NCBI GenBank assembly: GCA_027310185.1
Contig: DAIDBH010000018.1
Span: forward strand, 128,001 to 192,000
Direction of reading: 5' to 3'
Length of the DNA stretch: 64,000 nucleotides
DNA from: Thermoplasmatales archaeon
Lineage (GTDB): Archaea > Thermoplasmatota > Thermoplasmata > Thermoplasmatales > Thermoplasmataceae
Positions 920 through 41,934 of this stretch are shown one piece after another. Numbering within the stretch: position 1 is the stretch's first letter; every line of letters starts with the position of its first letter. Made by a program: the position numbers and the translations under genes. The notes under the pieces were generated by a model. The model was not told the origin of the DNA. It saw only the letters and a program-made list of their open reading frames with translations, and did no database searches.

Positions 920-1845
920 TGACAGTTACACCTCAATGGAAAGTTGATCTTGTTGATCATATTGCATCAACAATCTCAGAAAGCCCGGTAACTGCGTTTG
1001 TGAGCATCAAGGGAATAAGGAACAAACAGTTGCAGGGAATAAGAAGGGCACTGAGAGGAGAAGCATCAATAAGAGTGGTAAGAGGGACGCTTCTTGAAAA
1101 AGCTCTTGAAAAGGCAGGAAAGAAAAATATAGATAAACTGAAGGCATTCGTCGGAGGCCAGATCGCACTTGTCACAACAACAGACTCACCTGCAAAGCTG
1201 TACTCAAAACTGGAAAAGAACAGGCAAAAGTCAGCTGCAAGGGGTGGAGAAATTGCTGAAGAGGATATAGTTGTACCAGCCAAGGATACAAACTTTCCTC
1301 CAGGCCCAATGATCAGTGAGTTTCAGAAAGTCGGTTTACAGGCAGCTATCGAGAAGGGAAAAATAGTAATAAAGAAGGAAATGCTCTTTGTCAAGAAAGG
1401 GGACAAGATATCAAAAGAAAAGGCAAAGATACTTGAGAAACTTGAAATTCTTCCTCTTGATGTAGGCCTTGATGTAGTATCTGCATACGAAGATGGCATC
1501 ATATTTGACAGGGAAGCCATGTCCCTGACACCAGAAAAGGTAATGTCTGACATTGCATCTGCTTTCTCGCAGGGTAAGTTCCTTGCAACTGACATAACAT
1601 TCATTGTGAATGAAATAATGCCAGAATTAATAGTGAAGGCAAGAATGCAGGCAGAGTCCCTTGCAATGGCAGCCAATTTCATAGATGAGAACAATATGGC
1701 ATCGTTCATTCTGAAGGCAGCATCGCAGGCTTCGGCACTTCAGAACGAGCTCGAGGGAGAACCCGAGGAAACTAAGGAAGAGACAAAGGAAGAAAAGCCC
1801 AAGGAAGAGGATGGGGCTGCAGGGTTTGGAGCCCTGTTCGGATAA
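919..1845 (+). CDS. rpl10: 50S ribosomal protein L10/P0
   Basis: PQWKV, TNFPPGP and acidic C-terminus ending GFGALFG; TGATG coupling to rpl1. Confidence 0.97.
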
Positions 1846-1859
1846 AGGAGGTAAAAAGA

Positions 1860-2165
1860 ATGGAATATATATACGGAGCCCTGTTGCTTCATGCAGCAGG
1901 AAAAGAAGTAGATGAGGAAAAACTGAAAAAGGTGCTTGAAGACGCTGGTGTAACACCAGACGAAGCAAGACTGAAATCTTTGGTATCAAGTCTCAAGGAC
2001 GTAAATATTGAAGATGTAATAAAGCATGCAGCAGCTGCACCAGTAGCCGCTGCTCCTGCACAGGCACCTGCAAAGAAAGAGGAGAAGAAGGAAGAAAAGA
2101 AGGAAGAAAAGCCTGAAGCTAATGAAGAAGATGCAATGGCTGGACTGAGTTCATTATTCGGATGA
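1860..2165 (+). CDS. rpl12: 50S ribosomal protein L12/aP1
   Basis: [11 protein letters not shown] start, Ala-rich hinge, acidic tail, GLSSLFG. Confidence 0.97.
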
Positions 2166-2169
2166 ACAG

Positions 2170-2364
2170 ATGAACTGGAAAGAGTTTATTTCAGGAATTA
2201 TTCTTTATTTCCTTCCCATAGCCATTTTCTTGGTATCTATATTCATAATACCAAATGCGTTGTGGGTTGCGATATCGATAACCTGGATATTCACTTCACT
2301 TTTCTATAAACTTTTGACCCTTCCAGATTCCCAGGAAAGAAGGGAAAGGAACAACTCATTCTAA
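2170..2364 (+). CDS. Small membrane protein (2 TM), unknown function
   Basis: Two hydrophobic segments; 4 nt after the rpl12 stop. Confidence 0.6.
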   Translation: MNWKEFISGIILYFLPIAIFLVSIFIIPNALWVAISITWIFTSLFYKLLTLPDSQERRERNNSF

Positions 2365-2636
2365 CTCTTTTAAATTGATAAGAAGTTATTATTGAATATT
2401 GTTAATTAACGCATTTTATGATTGGATACTGTAACTCACTAATCGTTGAAGTTCTATCGATGATCAAGGTGTTATTTTAAATCATTGCATATGCTGAAGA
2501 CAAAATGCTTCATTTTTTAGGATTTAAACGTCATCATCTTACATCTGATGAATTTCTGTTCATTGGTCACAACCAATAACTGATAGCCCAGGTAAAAAAA
2601 TAAGTAAAATTAAATGAAGTTGATTTAAAAATATGC

Positions 2637-3167
2637 TTAATAGGTCATTTCTGGATTTGGAGGTAGCTGTTTCCTCTTCATGACCAGTCCAACTATTAAT
2701 ACTATGAAGCCTACGAATCCCAGAACTCCTCCAAGCAAAACTGGAAGAAGCGATACGAGTAAAGAGTCAATTGATTTCTTTATCATACTAACTTTTGCCT
2801 GATGGGTACCAAAAGTAATAATGACATACGTACCTGGAGATATACTGGTGTATTCAATTGTAGTTACACCAGAGGTTGTAGAGACCGTCCCATTTACCTC
2901 ATAACTACCAACATTGCTTGAGGTGACTGAGCTTGCATCGCTTCCTGGAACCAGATACGTCTTGCTGTCGTTGGAAGTAAGCACAATGAGCTGGCCAGAT
3001 GAAACCTGAATGCTGGAACTGTCCCACTGGGAAGTTCCTTTTTCTGTAAAAGTTGGAGAAGTTGTAATTCCTGATATTCCAAGGTCTCCTCCTGCATAGA
3101 AAAGGGCAACTCCCACTATAAGTAGAACAAGCCCTATAATGACGATATTTTTACGCATTGAAATCAC
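2637..3167 (-). CDS. Membrane protein, N- and C-terminal TM with Ser/Thr-rich extracellular domain
   Basis: Hydrophobic termini; SD-like AGGTGA at the 5' end. Confidence 0.7.
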   Translation of the reverse strand: MISMRKNIVIIGLVLLIVGVALFYAGGDLGISGITTSPTFTEKGTSQWDSSSIQVSSGQLIVLTSNDSKTYLVPGSDASSVTSSNVGSYEVNGTVSTTSGVTTIEYTSISPGTYVIITFGTHQAKVSMIKKSIDSLLVSLLPVLLGGVLGFVGFIVLIVGLVMKRKQLPPNPEMTY

Positions 3168-3491
3168 CTTACTTATTGAAATTGAGTTAATTAAAATTTG
3201 TGGACACCAATGTATAATTTTCTTTTTAAGATATTAAATAAACGAATTTAGTCTCATTCAATTGAAACAATTCTGAGACAGATTCATAATCAAATAAATT
3301 CAATAACTCACAGGGGGCATTCTCAATCTGAAAGAACATGAATTCCATAGGGATTACAAAAATAAAAATCAGTTCTTAATGACATAAATCAAGCAGATAT
3401 GAAGCCTGACTATCCTTGAATTTCAGTTGAATCTTAACTTATAGTAAGAAGAGAAACCAAAACTAATATTCACGATCATATTACATCAAAT

Positions 3492-4215: not shown

Positions 4216-5112
4216 ATGAAGATAGTAGAGTGTGTCCCGAATTTTAGTGAAGGCAGGGATAGGGAGAAGGTAGAAGCAATTACAAGGGAAATTGCCTCTG
4301 TCGGAAATGTTAAAATTCTTGATATGGAAATGGATGCAAACCACAACAGGAGTGTTGTTACTTTTACCTGCGAACCTCAATATGCAGTTGAGGCTGCTTT
4401 CAGGGGAATAAAGAAAGCATCTGAACTAATAGATATGGACAATCATCAGGGTGAACATCCCAGGTTTGGGTCAGCGGATGTCATCCCATTTATTCCAGTG
4501 TCTGAAGTTTCACTTAAGGAATGTGTAGACCTTGCAAACCAGCTTGGAAAGAGAGTAGGAGAGGAGTTGAATATCCCGGTATTTATGTACTCAGATGCTG
4601 CTGTAACAGAGAAGAGAAAGAACCTGGAAAATATAAGACACAAAAACTTCCAGTATGAACAATTAAAGACAGAAATTGGTAAGGGAGATTACATTCCTGA
4701 TTTTGGGCCTCTTGAACTAAGCAAAGCTGGTGCCTCAATTATTGGAGCAAGAGATTTTCTGGTTGCATACAATGTTAATCTAAGATCTCAGGACATGGAG
4801 GCAGGAAAGAAAATTGCAAAGGCTTTGAGGGCTAAGGATGGGGGACTAAGCTTCGTAAAAGCCCTGGCTTTCTATCTTGAAGACAAGAAGTGTGTCCAGA
4901 TATCAATGAACCTTACAAATTATAAGAAAACTCCAGTATACCGGGCATATGAAATGGTAAAGCTTGAAGCATCCAGGTACGGTATTGAGATCATGGAGTC
5001 AGAAGTTATCGGGCTTATACCACTGGATGCCATTTTAGAAACTGGAAGATTCTATATGAGAATGAATAGCTTCAAGTCAAACCAGATATTTGAAAAGAAG
5101 GTGTGGGAATGA
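4216..5112 (+). CDS. ftcD: Glutamate formiminotransferase
   Basis: VECVPNFSEGRD, HNRSV, GEHPRFGSADVIPFIP, VQISMNL. Confidence 0.93.
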   Translation: MKIVECVPNFSEGRDREKVEAITREIASVGNVKILDMEMDANHNRSVVTFTCEPQYAVEAAFRGIKKASELIDMDNHQGEHPRFGSADVIPFIPVSEVSLKECVDLANQLGKRVGEELNIPVFMYSDAAVTEKRKNLENIRHKNFQYEQLKTEIGKGDYIPDFGPLELSKAGASIIGARDFLVAYNVNLRSQDMEAGKKIAKALRAKDGGLSFVKALAFYLEDKKCVQISMNLTNYKKTPVYRAYEMVKLEASRYGIEIMESEVIGLIPLDAILETGRFYMRMNSFKSNQIFEKKVWE

Positions 5113-35185: not shown

Positions 35186-35508
35186 TGGGAATGCCCGGAG
35201 TAAGCTCCCTTCTGTTCCCCTGTAAAACAGGCTGGCAGCATTCGACTATGGCCGTAAGGCACGCTGCGTCCTACCCGACCCTCAGAGTGGTTTCACGGGG
35301 TCTCTTTGGACTTTCTCCAACCAGGTCAGCTGTCCCATCACCAATCCAGGAAACGTCATCCTCAGGGAATCATTCTTTACCTGGAAATGTTTCTTTCTTT
35401 TGCCGTTGCCATTCCTCTCGGAATACCTGCATGGCAGGTTGGTATCCACCCGGGAGGGGAGACTTTCCTCACTCCAGTGGAGCGTAAGCTGCCCTCGGGC
35501 TTTCCCAA
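35186..35508 (-). ncRNA. rnpB: RNase P RNA
   Basis: Minus strand has GAGGAAAGTCTCCC (CR-I) and AACAGAAGGGAGCTTA (CR-V) forming P4; terminal P1 TGGGAAAGCCCG/CGGGCATTCCCA. Confidence 0.95.
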
Positions 35509-38229: not shown

Positions 38230-39075
38230 TTATTGTAGAAGGGACTCGAATGGTTCACTCCCAAAGATTTCTAAAGGGAGGTCCCTGAACGTACTGTTGA
38301 ATGTATGTTCCCAGGAATCAGGATAATTCTGTCTTATCATGATTGCGCGAAGCGGAACAGAGTCAGGCGGCAGAAATCTATTATCATCACCCGGATCATT
38401 AATGTAGTCAGTCTCCAGAAGAAATTTCTTTTCCGTGGATATGGACTCTCTAACAAATTTCCTGGTAGCTGGAATGGAAAAACGCATCCATGAGTCACTC
38501 CAGAGATTTACCGGCAACGCGTGATGCTTTACAACCTTCCGCGGGTCGAGACCATTCTTCCTGGCAAAAGCCTCTATTTCCAATATCCTGGTATTATCAA
38601 GATCTTCCGTATGCAATATTGCAGGGCATTCCAGTTCACCGCATCTGGAAAAGGCATATTCAAGCAGCCTATTGGATTCATCCACAACTGAAGCTGAAAC
38701 TGGAAAATGAGGTCTTCCTATCTCCCCCATAGCATTTACAACCCCTTCCCCAATGAGTTTTGCCGCTCTGTCTATTCCATTCATCACAAGAGTTTCCCCA
38801 TCAAGACCAATTTCTGAAAAGCGAGCATAATCAAGTGGATATGGACCTATGGTGATTAGGACCGTTAAACCTGTTTCTCTTCTTACAGCCTCTGCCATCT
38901 TTATTGTCCTTTCATATATTGTTTCATAATAATGATCAGGGAACAGGGAATAGTCTGGAAGGTTAGTAAGATTGATTGCATTGCCACCCGCTTTCTTGAA
39001 TCGTAATGCACCTTCAATAAAATTCCCTCCATAATTGAGATGGAAGTGATTGTCAAAAATCAGATAATCACCCAT
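38230..39075 (-). CDS. TatD-family metallohydrolase/nuclease
   Basis: FDNHFH, GEIGRPH, ILHTE, VVKH, LLETD. Confidence 0.85.
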   Translation of the reverse strand: MGDYLIFDNHFHLNYGGNFIEGALRFKKAGGNAINLTNLPDYSLFPDHYYETIYERTIKMAEAVRRETGLTVLITIGPYPLDYARFSEIGLDGETLVMNGIDRAAKLIGEGVVNAMGEIGRPHFPVSASVVDESNRLLEYAFSRCGELECPAILHTEDLDNTRILEIEAFARKNGLDPRKVVKHHALPVNLWSDSWMRFSIPATRKFVRESISTEKKFLLETDYINDPGDDNRFLPPDSVPLRAIMIRQNYPDSWEHTFNSTFRDLPLEIFGSEPFESLLQ

Positions 39076-40271
39076 CAGAAATCAACCAGCCTCTTCTGCC
39101 TCTGTTGATTTTTCAGAATCCACGACATTTCCTTTGCCTTTTCTATACCCAATCTTGATTCCTTCATGAATTCATCGGTCGAAGAAAATTTAACGGGCCT
39201 GGTTTTCATGGCCTCTCTGACAGAACTCCTTATGACCCATACACCAAGGGGAGAATGATATTCTGAGCCAATAGTTCTTACAACAATGACAGATGCCTGT
39301 TTTCTCACCGATTTAAGGTATCTTGCAATTGATAGCCTTGCGGCATAGTATGCCCCTGTAATATTTGAAGCATATTTAGTCCTCCCATTTGGCCCTTCAT
39401 AATCAATTGAAACAGAACCCTGGCCCCACAGGGAACCTCTGTTCCACTGCTCAAGCATTTCAAAGGAAAATGGTCCAGGAAGGAGTACAACCTGAAACGA
39501 ATTACCCACATAACTCATGTCGAATTGCATGATATCTGAAATCCATGGGTAGTGAATAATATCCTTTTTTAGCTCTTTGAAAAGAACGTCATCAGTGGCA
39601 GTTATTGCCCATCTTGTAGGTACCATCTTCCTCTGGTGATCTATCCCTATCAAACCACCGGCAAGTATGTTTTGCAGATATTCTGGCTGAAAGCCCTCCT
39701 GAAACAGTTTGAAAAGGGCCTGTGAAGACTTCAGATCATTATCTTCGTGAATGTAATCAACCATTCTTGGTATTTTGGGATTTCCCGTAACCCTGAGATT
39801 GGAGACCATTGCAGTTGATCCAACCGGAGTATCAAAAAAATCTCCTGTATCAGGACCATGCATGGAAAAGTGATCGGTCTTGAAAGCGATCTCAAATGGT
39901 TTCACAGAAGAAGCACTTTCCAGTATATATTCATGAAATTTCTCATCTGGTCTTCTTATGGACATCTTTGATGCTGTTCTGTAGACATTTGAATTCATGG
40001 AAATAACTTCCTCCAGTTTCATCCCAAATCTGTCCTTACCATAATCAAAAACATCCTGATTAAAGAGGGCAGTTGGACCCGCAAGAACTTCTGGATATCC
40101 ATAATTGCCGACAAATATACCTGGGGGAGTATCTGTTTCTGCTTCTCCACTGACCATCCTGAGTTCAAGACCGCTGGATTTGAGGTTCTTTATTATGGGA
40201 CAATATCCAAGTCCACATAAATTCTTTTTTGCCTTACAGGAACTGCAATATGGAAACACTTTATTATACAT
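39075..40271 (-). CDS. nreA: DNA repair protein NreA
   Basis: N-terminal CxxC...LCG...CP, VPTRWAITATDD, GAYYAAR, PLGVW, C-terminal PIP box QKRLVDF. Confidence 0.9.
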   Translation of the reverse strand: MYNKVFPYCSSCKAKKNLCGLGYCPIIKNLKSSGLELRMVSGEAETDTPPGIFVGNYGYPEVLAGPTALFNQDVFDYGKDRFGMKLEEVISMNSNVYRTASKMSIRRPDEKFHEYILESASSVKPFEIAFKTDHFSMHGPDTGDFFDTPVGSTAMVSNLRVTGNPKIPRMVDYIHEDNDLKSSQALFKLFQEGFQPEYLQNILAGGLIGIDHQRKMVPTRWAITATDDVLFKELKKDIIHYPWISDIMQFDMSYVGNSFQVVLLPGPFSFEMLEQWNRGSLWGQGSVSIDYEGPNGRTKYASNITGAYYAARLSIARYLKSVRKQASVIVVRTIGSEYHSPLGVWVIRSSVREAMKTRPVKFSSTDEFMKESRLGIEKAKEMSWILKNQQRQKRLVDF

Positions 40272-40360
40272 GATTATGGAACTAATAATTTTATCTTTTT
40301 CGAGAGGTAATACATGACACGAAAAGAGAATTAGAGCGAGTGTTTAATTCAGAGAATGAT

Positions 40361-40640
40361 GCAATCTAAACTGTCCTCACATGAGGCAGCAAGAAACTCT
40401 GTTTGAGGGCAGGACAGTTAGGACGAACTGCCCATAAGAACACATGGGATTCAATGACCTGCTCGTCCTATGGAAATGAAGCATATACCTTCATGACTAT
40501 GCTGAAATCAGGCTGTTGAGACATGTAAGAAAGAGATAAATAATGGTCTTTCACGTCTGGCAAAGTAATGTAAATCAGTTGCCATTGCTTGATTATATTT
40601 ACAATACCTTCCGTCAGAGAGGGTTGGTTGAAACCTCACA
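40361..40640. ncRNA. Putative unannotated structured RNA (array of abutting hairpins)
   Basis: Stems 40369-40377/40411-40419, 40419-40428/40461-40470, 40481-40485/40498-40502, 40519-40525/40552-40558, 40558-40563/40579-40584, possibly closed by GCAAT/ATTGC. Confidence 0.5.
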
Positions 40641-40704
40641 ACAAAAGGAAAAATTAGAAAAGATTTATTAGAGAAACATGTTAAGGGAGATAAGGTGAAA
40701 ATAA

Positions 40705-41409
40705 ATGCAACAGGGACAAATGGCATATGATAGAGCAATTACAGTTTTCTCCCCTGATGGGAGACTATTTCAGGTTGAATATGCAAGAGAAGCAGTAAAA
40801 AGAGGCTCCACTGCTCTTGGAATCAAGTTCAAGGATGGCGTTCTTCTCATTTCAGAAAAAAGACCAAGAAGCAAGTTAATGGAACAGAACTCCCTGGAAA
40901 AAATTCAGTTAATAGATGATTTTGTAGGTTGTGTCACATCAGGTCTCGGGGCAGATGCAAGAGTCCTAATAGATTTCGCAAGGATAGTAACCCAGCAGGA
41001 AAAGGTCAGCTATGGTTCTCTTGTCAACATAGAGAATCTTGTCAAGAAGGTAGCAGACCAGATGCAGCAATATACACAGTACGGCGGGGTAAGGCCATAT
41101 GGTGTTTCCATTATTTTTGCAGGAATCGACCAGGTTGGAGCAAGGCTTTTTGATTCAGATCCATCCGGTGTCATTAATGAATATAAAGCAACTGCAATCG
41201 GTGCAGGAAGAGATCAGGTTCTTTCCTATCTCGAAAAGGAATACAAAGAGGACGCTGATGAAAAAACAGCAATCGGAATAGGCATTGCAGCTCTAAAATC
41301 TTCAATGGAAGAGGGAGCTGAATACAAGACTCCAGAAGTAGCCTCAATTAGAAGTGACTCAACTTTCAAAATATTTACCAAGGATGAAATTGAGAAACTG
41401 GTAAAATAA
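40705..41409 (+). CDS. psmA: Proteasome subunit alpha
   Basis: [35 protein letters not shown]. Confidence 0.98.
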
Positions 41410-41446: not shown

Positions 41447-41866
41447 ATGAATGAAACAAGTGTTATACGTGAAGTTTTTAGAGACAACAAAAGTGTGGCA
41501 GTAGTTGGCATAAGTAATAAAACAGACAGGGACAGCTACAAAGTTTCAAAATATCTAATGGAACATGGTTTCAAGGTTATACCAATAAACCCAGCATTGA
41601 CTGAATGGGAAGGTATCAAATGTTACCCTGATCTTGAATCAGCTTCACTGGAAAACAAGATTGAGGTTGTAGATATTTTCAGGAAATCAGAAGCGGTAGT
41701 GCCAGTAATTGAAGAAGCCCTAAAAATAATGCCAGATGTTATATGGATGCAGCTAGGTGTAGAGAATATGGAAGGGGCTAAACTTGCTGAAGATAACTCC
41801 ATAAAAGTCATAATGAATAAATGCATCATGGAGGAACATAAGAAAATGAATGTCGGGGTAGCCTAG
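41447..41866 (+). CDS. CoA-binding protein (YccU-like)
   Basis: VAVVGIS...RDS, IPINP, VVDIFR, IWMQLG, MNKC. Confidence 0.9.
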   Translation: MNETSVIREVFRDNKSVAVVGISNKTDRDSYKVSKYLMEHGFKVIPINPALTEWEGIKCYPDLESASLENKIEVVDIFRKSEAVVPVIEEALKIMPDVIWMQLGVENMEGAKLAEDNSIKVIMNKCIMEEHKKMNVGVA

Positions 41867-41934
41867 CCCGGTAAGGCGGTAGATTCGAAATCTACCGCTC
41901 TTGTAGCTCGGGAGTTCAAATCTCCCCCCCGGCG
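41852..41934 (+). tRNA. tRNA-Ser(CGA)
   Basis: GTCGGGG/CCCCGGC acceptor, GTAGA-TTCGAAA-TCTAC anticodon arm, long variable arm, discriminator G. Confidence 0.96.

What the first reader, a model, noticed from the sequence alone, without database searches (positions are those of the whole stretch)
40361..40640. Unexplained ~280-nt multi-hairpin element between nreA and the proteasome alpha gene
Seen: this 430-nt spacer has no credible ORF but carries near-abutting stems. They are AACTGTCCT/AGGACAGTT (40369-40419, inner AGGCAG/CTGTTT), TAGGACGA/TCGTCCTA (40419-40470, inner CCCAT/ATGGG), GCATA/TATGC (40481-40502), AGACATG..GAAAGA/TCTTTC..CACGTCT (40519-40558) and TGGCAA/TTGCCA (40558-40584). GCAAT 40361 / ATTGC 40584 could close them into one multibranch fold, and a GAGG/CCTC hairpin lies near 40619-40637. 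Two A-C mismatches become G-U pairs on the minus strand, which would put the RNA upstream of nreA, but one inner stem favours plus. The first two hairpins have a stem/internal loop/stem guide-like architecture. I do not recognise it as tRNA, SRP, RNase P, a TPP riboswitch or a CRISPR repeat. Inference: a novel ncRNA, such as an H/ACA-like or other guide, a cis-regulator of nreA or psmA, or a non-autonomous element. This is my best candidate for an undescribed system.
Basis: partly seen in the sequence, partly recalled or inferred. Interest (0 to 1): 0.7.

Follow-up and report, generated by a model that had tools for sequence, protein, structure and literature searches.

The report
Decayed guide-RNA-bearing mini-transposon copy
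The hairpin-rich stretch between the nreA and proteasome-alpha genes is one diverged copy of a small protein-less mobile element descended from IS200/IS605 transposons, which carries the folded guide-RNA part of such transposons; it is an ordinary kind of thing, though this family has not been catalogued.

Summary
They fold barely better than shuffles (z -1.7 to -2.1), and most of the proposed stems are not conserved in relatives.

The core of the spacer, window 40295-40632 on the + strand (338 nt), is an insertion:
- Two same-genus genomes have an empty site.
- Others carry unrelated sequence there.
- Both promoter-proximal flanks are conserved.

The insert is the only copy in this genome of a patchy, multicopy repeat of Thermoplasmatales. 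A profile built without it hits it at E 1.6e-20. Full copies have a left end preceded by TTTAT, a structured core, and a right end with a hairpin stopping at GTTGAC. The same two ends flank a 376-aa TnpB gene in other genera, whose stop codon lies inside GTTGAC.

Covariation (92.8% of cells paired against 28-52% in slid controls) and G-U excess (118 against 23) place a structured RNA on the + strand. A hairpin-loop hexamer is complementary to the 3' terminus, as in TnpB omegaRNA pseudoknots.

Verdict: a tnpB-less IS200/IS605 derivative (PATE) carrying an omegaRNA-like scaffold. This copy is the most diverged one and is probably a relic. It is a known kind in an uncatalogued family. No transcript evidence was obtained.

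The parts
39075..40271 (-). nreA (398 aa), left flanking gene. It is not part of the element.
   Evidence: ORF list. Pfam Nre_N 1.5e-69 and Nre_C 2.5e-29.
40290..40294 (+). TTTAT, the likely target or transposon-adjacent motif just 5' of the left end. It lies in the conserved TAATAATTTTAT block next to the nreA start.
   Evidence: TTTATC sits 3-4 nt before the conserved GTGAGC/GCGAGC left-end motif in 10 of 14 type-A left ends inspected, and the flanks diverge upstream of it. The empty sites in G003 and G016 read TTTTATG and then run straight into the psmA-side flank. The TAM role is inferred.
40295..40632 (+). The whole inserted element (338 nt), a tnpB-less IS200/IS605 derivative (PATE-like).
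   Evidence: The boundaries come from comparison with the empty sites and from the family alignment, in which all copies stop at GTTGAC or GTTGAA. It is a single copy in G000.
40295..40345 (+). Left-end region, a diverged version of the family motif GTGAGCGGGAAGACCCC..hairpin..GATGAAAGCGA.
   Evidence: Aligned in A2 and compared by eye. It was not picked up by the profile, whose match starts at 40362, so this assignment is weaker.
40343..40349 (+). TTTAATT, an A/T-rich patch 23-29 nt upstream of the conserved core start. It may be an archaeal TATA-like promoter for the element's RNA.
   Evidence: Most of the 28 copies have an A/T-rich patch at -35 to -21 from TGTCC. In the tnpB-bearing copy the same position lies about 25 nt upstream of the tnpB ATG. 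This is inference only, in an AT-rich genome.
40362..40578 (+). Core that matches the family profile. It includes conserved helices H1 40397-40400/40406-40409, H2 40447-40456/40500-40509 (8 of 10 pairs kept), H3 40463-40467/40472-40476 (3 of 5) and H5 40511-40515/40576-40580 (5 of 5).
   Evidence: nhmmer E 1.6e-20, model positions 67-284 of 383, the only hit in G000. Helices from RNAalifold and covariation counts. Window pairs listed.
40570..40575 (+). GTAAAT, the counterpart of the family's hairpin-loop hexamer GTCAAC (5' half of the proposed pseudoknot).
   Evidence: Columns 6-11 of A3 pair with columns 99-104 in 91% of cells. In the window 4 of 6 pairs are possible (my reading of A3).
40606..40624 (+). 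Right-end terminal hairpin (6-bp stem, 7-nt loop).
   Evidence: The 18-mer 40607-40624 is identical to the right end of a tnpB-pseudogene element in G009 (L035) and occurs once in G000. The family hairpin covaries, with 6 of 8 pairs showing double changes.
40627..40632 (+). GTTGAA, the terminal motif of the right end (family GTTGAC) and the 3' half of the proposed pseudoknot.
   Evidence: All 28 aligned copies end here, and the flanks diverge after it. In the tnpB-bearing copy the tnpB stop codon TGA lies inside this motif.
40633..40652 (+). The flank that would serve as the guide segment if the RNA works like an omegaRNA.
   Evidence: Inferred from the published omegaRNA layout, in which the guide lies 3' of the right end (PMC10097598, passages read). 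Not tested.
40645..40704 (+). Conserved psmA upstream block (AAAAATTAGAAAAGATTTATTAG..AAGGTGA). It is not part of the element.
   Evidence: Conserved in all 12 same-genus spacers compared.
40705..41409 (+). psmA (proteasome alpha, 234 aa), right flanking gene.
   Evidence: ORF list. Pfam Proteasome 2.1e-55 and Proteasome_A_N 1.9e-14.

Best explanation
Window 40295-40632 (+ strand) is one copy of a non-autonomous, protein-less derivative of an IS200/IS605-type insertion sequence, that is, a palindrome-associated transposable element (PATE).

It inserted just 3' of a TTTAT motif between the divergent nreA and psmA promoters.

The family keeps four parts:
- the transposon left end;
- an A/T-rich patch where the tnpB promoter would be;
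- a roughly 215-nt structured core;
- the last roughly 70 nt of tnpB with the right end.

Together these fold, on the tnpB-sense strand, into an omegaRNA-like scaffold. In that scaffold a hairpin-loop hexamer pairs with the terminal GTTGAC immediately before the flanking DNA, which would be the guide.

By analogy with published systems, such elements would be moved in trans by a Y1 transposase (TnpA). Their RNA would be used in trans by a TnpB nuclease to cut emptied sites.

Shown here: the insertion, family membership, shared ends with tnpB elements, the conserved fold and the strand.

Inferred only: transcription, the TAM, the guide, and use by TnpA or TnpB.

The window copy is the most diverged member, and its right-end domain no longer scores with the family's covariance model. 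I therefore think it is most likely a decaying relic without a role for nreA or psmA.
For: 1. Insertion.
- The nreA/psmA divergent pair is kept in 11 other same-genus loci whose spacer I extracted. Spacer length between the start codons is 433 nt in G011, G012 and this genome, and 323 nt in G015. By my estimate from the tblastn coordinates it is about 260 nt in G006, about 210 in G013, about 120-135 in four others, and about 90-95 in G003 and G016.
- Both promoter-proximal blocks are conserved. The core matches none of the 11 above shuffle level (best local score 35 against a shuffle maximum of 31, and that score lies at the conserved edge).

2. Family.
- A 15-copy profile built without the window hits G000 once, at window 40362-40578 on the + strand, E 1.6e-20.
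- A 421-nt copy from another genus finds matches in 37 of 103 family genomes at E<=1e-5. By my count of the listed rows, 20 of the other 102 genomes have a match of at least 200 nt that includes the core.
- Up to 6 places per genome were scored, which is the cap, and several lie at contig ends.
- At class level the core and right-end part of that copy (286 nt) finds 11 of 301 sampled genomes: 9 in the window's family, one in a sister family, and G000 itself.

3. Link to IS200/IS605.
- The same left end and right end flank a 376-aa ORF with Pfam Cas12f1-like_TNB (1.8e-20) and OrfB_IS605 (1.3e-9) in L072. A copy 83% identical at protein level is in L073.
- Internally deleted copies are in L065/L074 and L067, and a frameshifted copy is in L035.
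- The tnpB stop codon lies inside the terminal GTTGAC.
- G000's own tnpA+tnpB element (contig C3) has the same left-end motif.

4. PATE traits.
- No ORF.
- No terminal inverted repeat between the two ends and no flanking direct repeat.
- Near-terminal hairpins.

5. Structured RNA on the + strand.
- 31 consensus pairs, 19 with a compensatory change. 92.8% of cells are paired against 28-52% when partners are slid. 70 double-change cells against 20.5 +/- 5.7 in shuffles, with 0 of 500 shuffles reaching any of the five measures.
- GU+UG 118 cells against AC+CA 23.
- Alignment fold energy -112.5 on the + strand against -93.6 on the - strand.
- Right-end domain, including 4 tnpB-linked copies: 88.1% paired against 27-54% slid, and 59 double-change cells against 20.6 +/- 3.8.

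6. Right end of the window copy. The 18-mer 40607-40624 is identical to the right end of L035.

7. Literature. PATEs lack protein genes, have near-terminal palindromes, make no target duplication and derive from IS605-type elements (PMC3119063, passages). PATEs 'often encode omegaRNAs' that TnpB would use in trans (PMC10055086, passages).
Against: - The covariance model of the right-end domain (built without the window) gives the window copy only 11.5 bits, E 1.4. A search of the whole genome with it found nothing at E<=1.
- The profile match covers only 40362-40578. The left-end and right-end assignments in the window therefore rest on the MAFFT alignment, the shared 18-mer and the empty-site comparison.
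- The window copy keeps 23 of 31 consensus pairs, the second lowest of 28. Its median identity to other copies is 53%, against 67% among the others.
- The proposed pseudoknot helix is mostly invariant, with one pair showing a double change and three pairs departing only by mismatches. Covariation therefore hardly tests it.
- The 215-nt core shows no significant similarity to tnpB. tblastn recognises only the last 22-26 codons. Permissive DNA alignment of the tnpB 3' region scores 33.5-37 against a shuffle mean of 38-39. Calling the whole core 'omegaRNA' is thus an extrapolation.
- No tnpB lies directly upstream of the 17 core-bearing copies examined.
- The closest TnpB-like ORF in G000 is only 41% identical to the family's TnpB over residues 156-345.
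- Single-sequence folding z-scores are weak, both for the window (-2.06) and for a well-conserved copy (-1.34).
Confidence: 0.8

Rival explanations
1. The copy is not a relic. It is transcribed from its own promoter, and a resident TnpB uses it in trans as a working omegaRNA. That RNA would target the emptied TTTAT + 40633-40652 site and so keep the insertion in the population.
For: G000 has three open TnpB-like frames (345, 420 and 390 aa) and two intact Y1 transposase genes. Their left ends resemble the family's. H1, H2 (8 of 10 pairs) and H5 (5 of 5 pairs) and the terminal hairpin survive in the window copy. An A/T-rich patch lies 23-29 nt upstream of the core start.
Against: The right-end domain does not score with the model (E 1.4). 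Pseudoknot complementarity is 4 of 6. The resident TnpBs are at most 41% identical to the family's TnpB, and their own right ends finish differently (ATGTCA). No transcript evidence was obtained.
Confidence: 0.15
2. It is a host non-coding RNA or cis-regulatory element serving nreA or psmA: an H/ACA-like guide, a leader, or an insulator between the two promoters.
For: It sits between two divergent promoters and has several hairpins.
Against: Same-genus relatives keep both genes and both promoter blocks but lack this sequence, and two have no insert at all. Homologues lie at unrelated loci, in several copies, next to unrelated genes. There is no Rfam hit.
Confidence: 0.04
3. The hairpins are chance features of a fast-evolving spacer.
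For: Folding z-scores of only -1.7 to -2.1.
Against: Genome-wide profile match at E 1.6e-20. Exact 18-mer shared with a transposon right end. Precise insertion boundaries.
Confidence: 0.02
4. It is an IscB-type omegaRNA (HEARO) on the minus strand.
For: A relative (L026) gives a weak HEARO hit on the minus strand: 24.8 bits, E 0.0043.
Against: The gathering score is 83. The hit skips 116 model positions. There is no HEARO hit in the window. G-U asymmetry and tnpB orientation both point to the plus strand. The associated protein is TnpB, not IscB.
Confidence: 0.01

Closest known systems
PATEs (palindrome-associated transposable elements) of haloarchaea, derived from IS605/IS1341-type elements (PMC3119063, passages read)
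   Same: It is too short to encode a protein, has no terminal inverted repeats and makes no target duplication. It has near-terminal hairpins, and its ends are shared with tnpB-bearing elements. Some copies retain part of the tnpB C-terminal coding region. It is multicopy, patchy and heterogeneous.
   Different: It occurs in a different lineage (Thermoplasmatales). A conserved, covarying core of about 215 nt has no detectable tnpB origin. I could not compare terminal sequences with the paper's supplementary tables, which were closed.
TnpB omegaRNA / reRNA of IS200/IS605, e.g. ISDra2 (PMC10097598, passages read) and PATE-borne omegaRNAs in Geobacillus (PMC10055086, passages read)
   Same: The sense is the same as tnpB. 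The scaffold ends at the transposon right end, with the flank as the presumed guide. A short helix joins the last bases before the guide to an upstream hairpin loop (a pseudoknot). In the gene-bearing copies the scaffold lies inside the 3' end of tnpB.
   Different: From the conserved core start to the right end the family RNA would be about 260-310 nt, against a 116-nt scaffold in ISDra2. The window copy has no tnpB. Binding, processing, TAM and cleavage are untested.
MITEs
   Same: Both are small, non-autonomous, multicopy derivatives of insertion sequences.
   Different: MITEs have terminal inverted repeats and usually make target duplications. Neither is present here.
HEARO RNA (Rfam RF02033, the IscB omegaRNA)
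   Same: It is also a transposon-borne structured guide RNA that often occurs without its ORF.
   Different: Only a sub-threshold hit (24.8 bits against 83) on the opposite strand of a relative, and none in the window. The partner protein here is TnpB.

Membership tests
PATE (non-autonomous IS200/IS605 derivative) | Too short to encode a transposase, with no real ORF | tested here: met
   The element is 338 nt. ORFs in the spacer are 76 aa or shorter, and 0 of the 4 tested reach Pfam at E<=0.001.
PATE (non-autonomous IS200/IS605 derivative) | No terminal inverted repeats and no target-site duplication | tested here: met
   The repeat finder on 40280-40650 finds no inverted pair joining the two termini and no direct repeat at the flanks. 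The empty sites are contiguous.
PATE (non-autonomous IS200/IS605 derivative) | Near-terminal palindromes (hairpins) at both ends | tested here: inconclusive
   The right-end hairpin is present in the window (40606-40624) and covaries in the family. The left-end hairpin is clear in the family (CCCCTTG..CAAGGGG). In the window only weak A/T-rich pairings are visible.
PATE (non-autonomous IS200/IS605 derivative) | Ends related to those of tnpB/tnpA-bearing IS605-type elements | tested here: met
   The family's left end and right end flank TnpB ORFs in L072 and L073 and deleted forms in L065/L074, L067 and L035. G000's own IS605 shares the left-end motif. The window's right-end 18-mer is identical to that of L035.
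PATE (non-autonomous IS200/IS605 derivative) | Evidence of mobility: multicopy, and present or absent at orthologous sites | tested here: met
   37 of 103 family genomes have matches, with up to 6 scored places per genome. The nreA-psmA site is empty in G003 and G016.
TnpB omegaRNA (reRNA) | Encoded in the 3' end of tnpB plus the right end, on the tnpB-sense strand | tested here: not met
   This is met for the gene-bearing relatives (L072, with the stop codon inside the terminal GTTGAC). The window copy has no tnpB, and only the last 22-26 codons are recognisable in PATE copies. The strand is + by G-U excess, 118 against 23.
TnpB omegaRNA (reRNA) | Conserved scaffold with a pseudoknot next to the guide | tested here: inconclusive
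   The hairpin-loop GUCAAC pairs with the terminal GUUGAC in 91% of cells across 34 sequences, but only one pair has a double change. The window keeps 4 of 6 pairs. The covariance model of the domain scores the window at E 1.4.
TnpB omegaRNA (reRNA) | Transcribed and processed RNA whose 3' segment is the flanking DNA (the guide) | tested here: inconclusive
   Only assembled contigs of RNA libraries could be laid, and none covers the spacer. That is neither support nor evidence against.
TnpB omegaRNA (reRNA) | Bound by TnpB, with TAM-dependent RNA-guided DNA cleavage | not testable with these tools
   This needs biochemistry or an interference assay.
HEARO (RF02033) | Score at or above Rfam's gathering threshold | tested here: not met
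   No hit in the window. 24.8 bits against 83 on the minus strand of L026.
Archaeal H/ACA guide sRNA | Match to a curated H/ACA family, and conservation as a host gene | tested here: not met
   No Rfam match in the window. The sequence is absent at the orthologous site in relatives. ACA-box and K-turn geometry were not examined separately.

The most novel reading that the evidence does not exclude
The conserved core of about 215 nt (window about 40372-40510 plus the H5 interior) is a new RNA module, not a leftover of tnpB. PATEs of acidophilic Thermoplasmatales would carry it as cargo.

Two possibilities fit the evidence. It could be an enlarged 5' extension that lets a protein-less element make a stable, self-promoted guide RNA and so parasitise resident TnpB nucleases ('guide-only' parasites). 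Or it could be an RNA with a function of its own.

Three observations do not exclude this:
- Its helices covary.
- It is 80-90% identical between genera.
- It has no Rfam family and no detectable similarity to tnpB.

The nreA-psmA site, filled by three different inserts that all end in GTTGA in three species, would then mark a recurrent targeted landing site at a TATA-like TTTAT.
Probability: 0.15. Interest if true: 0.6.

Novelty: new member of a known kind. Interest (0 to 1): 0.3.

Why it matters
For this window it removes a candidate 'new ncRNA system'. The hairpins belong to a mobile-element relic, and nothing suggests a role for nreA or the proteasome gene.

The family has some wider value:
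- It is absent from Rfam. I found no description of it in three literature searches.
- It offers a covariation-supported, unusually long omegaRNA-like scaffold from extreme acidophiles.
- It gives a natural series running from tnpB-bearing copies, through internally deleted copies, to protein-less copies.

That series could help show how guide RNAs survive the loss of their nuclease gene, and which TAM these archaeal TnpBs use. A model of the family would also stop these repeats from being flagged again as novel RNAs in Thermoplasmatales genomes.

Tried and rejected
- **Rfam.** The whole window at gathering score gave only RNase P RNA and four tRNAs. The spacer at E<=10 gave only rliE, 17 bits. 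Five relatives' loci at gathering score gave nothing. L026 at E<=10 gave a weak HEARO hit on the minus strand, rejected on score, strand and partner protein.
- **Inversion test.** The reverse complement of the equally long (433 nt) G011/G012 spacer does not match the window core either. Ungapped identity is 30.6% against a shuffle mean of 27% and a maximum of 35%. That spacer core is single-copy and was found only in G011 and G012 among 103 genomes.
- **RNA evidence.** The look-up of sequencing runs listed 12 RNA runs holding part of 40100-40900. I laid 4 of them. In X1 and X2, contigs with no differences from the window cover nreA up to 40231 or 40218 and psmA from 40708 or 40775. No contig covers or bridges the spacer. 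These are assembled contigs, so this says nothing about transcription either way.
- **Origin of the core in tnpB.** tblastn with five TnpB proteins against 28 copies recognised only the last 22-26 codons; all other hits had E>0.05. Permissive local DNA alignment of the 127 nt upstream of the shared TCAGGCTG scored 33.5-37 against a shuffle mean of 38-39. A GCAAGAA.ACAT.GG resemblance and a possible H2-like helix in L072, both seen by eye, are therefore not claimed.
- **Covariance model R1** of the right-end domain. It found nothing in G000 at E<=1. The window copy scored 11.5 bits, E 1.4, and G011/G012 gave nothing. The G015 spacer scored 35.5 bits, E 3.4e-7, and G000's IS605 right end 16.6 bits, E 0.055.
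- **Single-sequence folding** as a test of structure was uninformative. A well-conserved copy gives z -1.34.
- **Bacterial promoter and terminator scan.** Not run, because the organism is an archaeon.
The PATE terminal-sequence tables of PMC3119063 and the extended data of PMC10055086 could bear on how close these ends are to described PATEs.
Full report
**The locus.** The finding lies in the 433-nt spacer between two divergently transcribed genes. One is nreA (39075-40271, minus strand; Pfam Nre_N and Nre_C). The other is the proteasome alpha gene (40705-41409, plus strand; Pfam Proteasome and Proteasome_A_N). The window is contig C18:128001-192000 of a 1.88-Mb archaeal genome. Close relatives of the psmA gene are titled Thermoplasmatales or Thermoplasmata archaeon, and at 80-84% identity Cuniculiplasma.

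**Check of the observation.**
Two inner strings are one base off.
- There is no credible ORF and no Pfam match.
- No Rfam family matches at gathering score, nor at E<=10 apart from a meaningless rliE hit.
- As a single sequence the region does not fold notably better than shuffles. Window 40355-40645 gives z -1.66 on the + strand and -1.67 on the - strand. The element's core plus right end gives -2.06.

**The core is an insertion.** I searched 40 relatives with the spacer and its gene edges, and extracted the spacer from 11 other same-genus loci that keep the nreA/psmA pair.
- Two blocks are conserved everywhere. One is about 25 nt next to nreA that ends in TAATAATTTTAT. The other is about 65 nt next to psmA (AAAAATTAGAAAAGATTTATTAG...AAGGTGA).
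- Between them the sequence is not conserved at all.
- Spacer length between the start codons is 433 nt here and in G011 and G012, and 323 nt in G015. By my estimate from the tblastn coordinates it is about 260 nt in G006, about 210 in G013, about 120-135 in four others, and about 90-95 in G003 and G016, which have no insert.
- The window core matches none of them on either strand above shuffle level.
- Comparison with the empty sites places the insertion exactly between TTTTAT and (A/G)CCT..CAAC. The insert is therefore window 40295-40632.

**It belongs to a repeat family.**
- The core is single-copy in its own genome.
- It has BLAST matches at unrelated loci in other genera of the family.
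- Those homologues are 330-380-nt elements that are 86% identical between two genera.
- Using one of them as a query, 37 of 103 family genomes have matches at E<=1e-5. By my count of the listed rows, 20 of the other 102 genomes have a match of at least 200 nt that includes the core. Up to six places per genome were scored, which is the cap, so copy numbers are lower bounds. Several copies sit at contig ends.
- In a class-wide sample, the core and right-end part of that element (286 nt) finds 11 of 301 genomes: 9 in the window's family, one in a sister family, and G000 itself.
- A profile HMM built from 15 copies without the window hits the 1.88-Mb genome exactly once, at window 40362-40578 on the + strand, E 1.6e-20.

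**What the family is.** The 28-copy alignment and the flanks show five parts:
- a left end, in two variants; the commoner is GTGAGCGGGAAGACCCC-hairpin-GATGAAAGCGAAC;
- an unconserved A/T-rich linker;
- a sharply bounded conserved core that starts at TGTCCACACC;
- in most copies, an extra hairpin;
- a right end with a covarying hairpin, followed by TAGTTGAC, after which all flanks diverge.

TTTATC precedes the type-A left end in 10 of 14 copies inspected.

The same left end and right end flank a 376-aa ORF in two other genera (L072, L073). Pfam calls it Cas12f1-like_TNB plus OrfB_IS605, so it is a TnpB. Internally deleted and frameshifted tnpB versions with the same ends also exist (L065/L074, L067, L035). 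In L072 the tnpB stop codon TGA lies inside the terminal GTTGAC.

G000 itself carries three open TnpB-like frames and two intact Y1 transposase genes. Its tnpA+tnpB element on contig C3 has the same left-end motif.

The window element has no terminal inverted repeats and no target duplication. These are the defining traits of PATEs as described for haloarchaea (PMC3119063, passages). PATEs carrying omegaRNAs have been noted in Geobacillus (PMC10055086, passages).

**Structure and strand.**
- RNAalifold on the 28 copies predicts 31 pairs on the plus strand, 19 of them with compensatory changes.
- On my count, 92.8% of cells pair against 28-52% when the 3' partners are slid by 1-3 columns. There are 70 double-change cells against 20.5 +/- 5.7 in shuffles, and 0 of 500 shuffles reach any of the five measures.
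- G-U/U-G cells outnumber A-C/C-A cells by 118 to 23.
- The alignment folds to -112.5 on the plus strand against -93.6 on the minus strand.
- So the conserved fold is on the plus strand, which is the tnpB-sense strand and points towards psmA.
- For the right-end domain I aligned 34 sequences, including four tnpB-linked copies and the G015 spacer.
- I tested four helices: GUCAAC with the terminal GUUGAC, GUUGC with GCAAC, the optional hairpin, and the terminal hairpin.
- 88.1% of cells pair against 27-54% when slid, with 59 double-change cells against 20.6 +/- 3.8.
- GUCAAC lies in the loop of the GGCUG/CAGCC hairpin (helix H5), so its pairing with the 3' terminus is a pseudoknot.
- That layout matches the published TnpB omegaRNA (PMC10097598, passages).
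- This helix is nearly invariant, so covariation barely tests it.

**The window copy in particular.** It is the most diverged member.
- Its median identity to the other copies is 53%, against 67% among the others. It keeps 23 of 31 consensus pairs, the second lowest of 28.
- H1 (4 of 4 pairs), H2 (8 of 10) and H5 (5 of 5) survive. H3 keeps 3 of 5.
- The covariance model of the right-end domain, built without the window, scores it at only 11.5 bits, E 1.4, and finds nothing in the genome at E<=1.
- Against that, the 18-mer 40607-40624, which forms the terminal hairpin, is identical to the right end of a tnpB-pseudogene element in a same-genus genome. The copy also ends in GTTGAA, as three other family members do.
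The rest are specific to this copy.

**How it most likely works.**
- Shown: the insertion, family membership, shared ends with tnpB elements, and a conserved plus-strand fold.
- Inferred from the published mechanism of IS200/IS605: mobilisation as single-stranded DNA by a Y1 TnpA acting in trans, with insertion 3' of TTTAT.
- Inferred and from the tnpB-bearing copy: transcription from the A/T-rich patch about 25 nt upstream of the core, where the tnpB promoter would sit.
- Inferred: use of the RNA by a TnpB in trans, with the flank 40633-40652 as guide against emptied sites.
- Given the decay of this copy and the distance of the resident TnpBs (at most 41% identity), I think it is most likely an inert relic sitting harmlessly between two intact promoters.

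**What remains open.** The 215-nt core has no detectable relationship to tnpB or to any Rfam family, yet it is the best conserved part and it covaries. Whether it is an enlarged omegaRNA 5' domain or something else is not settled. No transcript evidence could be obtained, because RNA-library contigs cover both genes but not the spacer, which proves nothing.

**Novelty.** The kind of element (a PATE with an omegaRNA-like scaffold) is known. This family is not in Rfam. I found no description of it in three full-text searches: Thermoplasmatales/TnpB/MITE, Cuniculiplasma/transposase/IS200, and Thermoplasma/IS605/non-autonomous. A Cuniculiplasma genome paper only lists IS200/605 among the IS families present (PMC5155288, passages). 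An archaeal IS survey does not treat non-autonomous derivatives of this lineage (PMC13343696, passages). I read only the abstract of PMC12558985, on expressed archaeal omegaRNAs.

Noticed in passing
L003/L004 (G011, G012) and L005 (G015), nreA-psmA spacers; window 40290-40640 is the orthologous site: The same site, after TTTTATC and before ..CAACAAAAGG, holds three different inserts in three species, and each ends in GTTGA(A/C/T). G015's insert carries a clear right-end domain of the family (35.5 bits, E 3.4e-7) but a different 5' part. The G011/G012 insert is unrelated, single-copy, found only in those two of 103 genomes, and gives a spacer of exactly the same length (433 nt). This could be a recurrent landing site at a TATA-like TTTAT, or serial replacement.
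   Followed up: partly
window 35189-35504 (-): Archaeal RNase P RNA, 184.4 bits, full length.
   Followed up: no
window 41852-41934 (+): An 83-nt tRNA hit (53.9 bits) that overlaps the last bases of the 139-aa ORF 41447-41866. Its length suggests a long variable arm or an intron.
   Followed up: no
G000 contigs C2:13.4-15.0 kb, C3:51.1-52.9 kb, C17:200.5-201.7 kb, C7:22.07-22.39 kb: Resident IS200/IS605 elements. Two have intact tnpA+tnpB, one has tnpB only, and one tnpA is broken by stop codons. Their left ends share the family motif, but their right ends finish in ATGTCA(C/G) rather than GTTGAC.
   Followed up: partly
window 4243-4422 (+) (G000:C18:132243-132422): A sub-threshold Y1_Tnp match (18.8 bits, E 0.002) inside a 306-aa open frame.
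   Followed up: no
L075 (G114:C46) 1676-3321 (-): A 402-aa TnpB of a different subfamily (29% identical to the family's) lies about 140 nt upstream of, and on the same strand as, an internally deleted family copy. This may be nesting next to another element's right end.
   Followed up: no
G088 contigs C34, C51, C50, C47: Four near-identical family copies sit within 44-265 nt of contig ends, so the repeat breaks that assembly.
   Followed up: no
window 40562-40575 / 40597-40610: A 14-nt, 86% complementary inverted repeat specific to the window copy. It would sequester the hexamer that forms the pseudoknot in other copies.
   Followed up: no
L025 about 2000-2140 and L026 about 990-1100: Masked stretches (runs of N, read as X in ORFs) lie close to family copies in two relatives' loci.
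   Followed up: no
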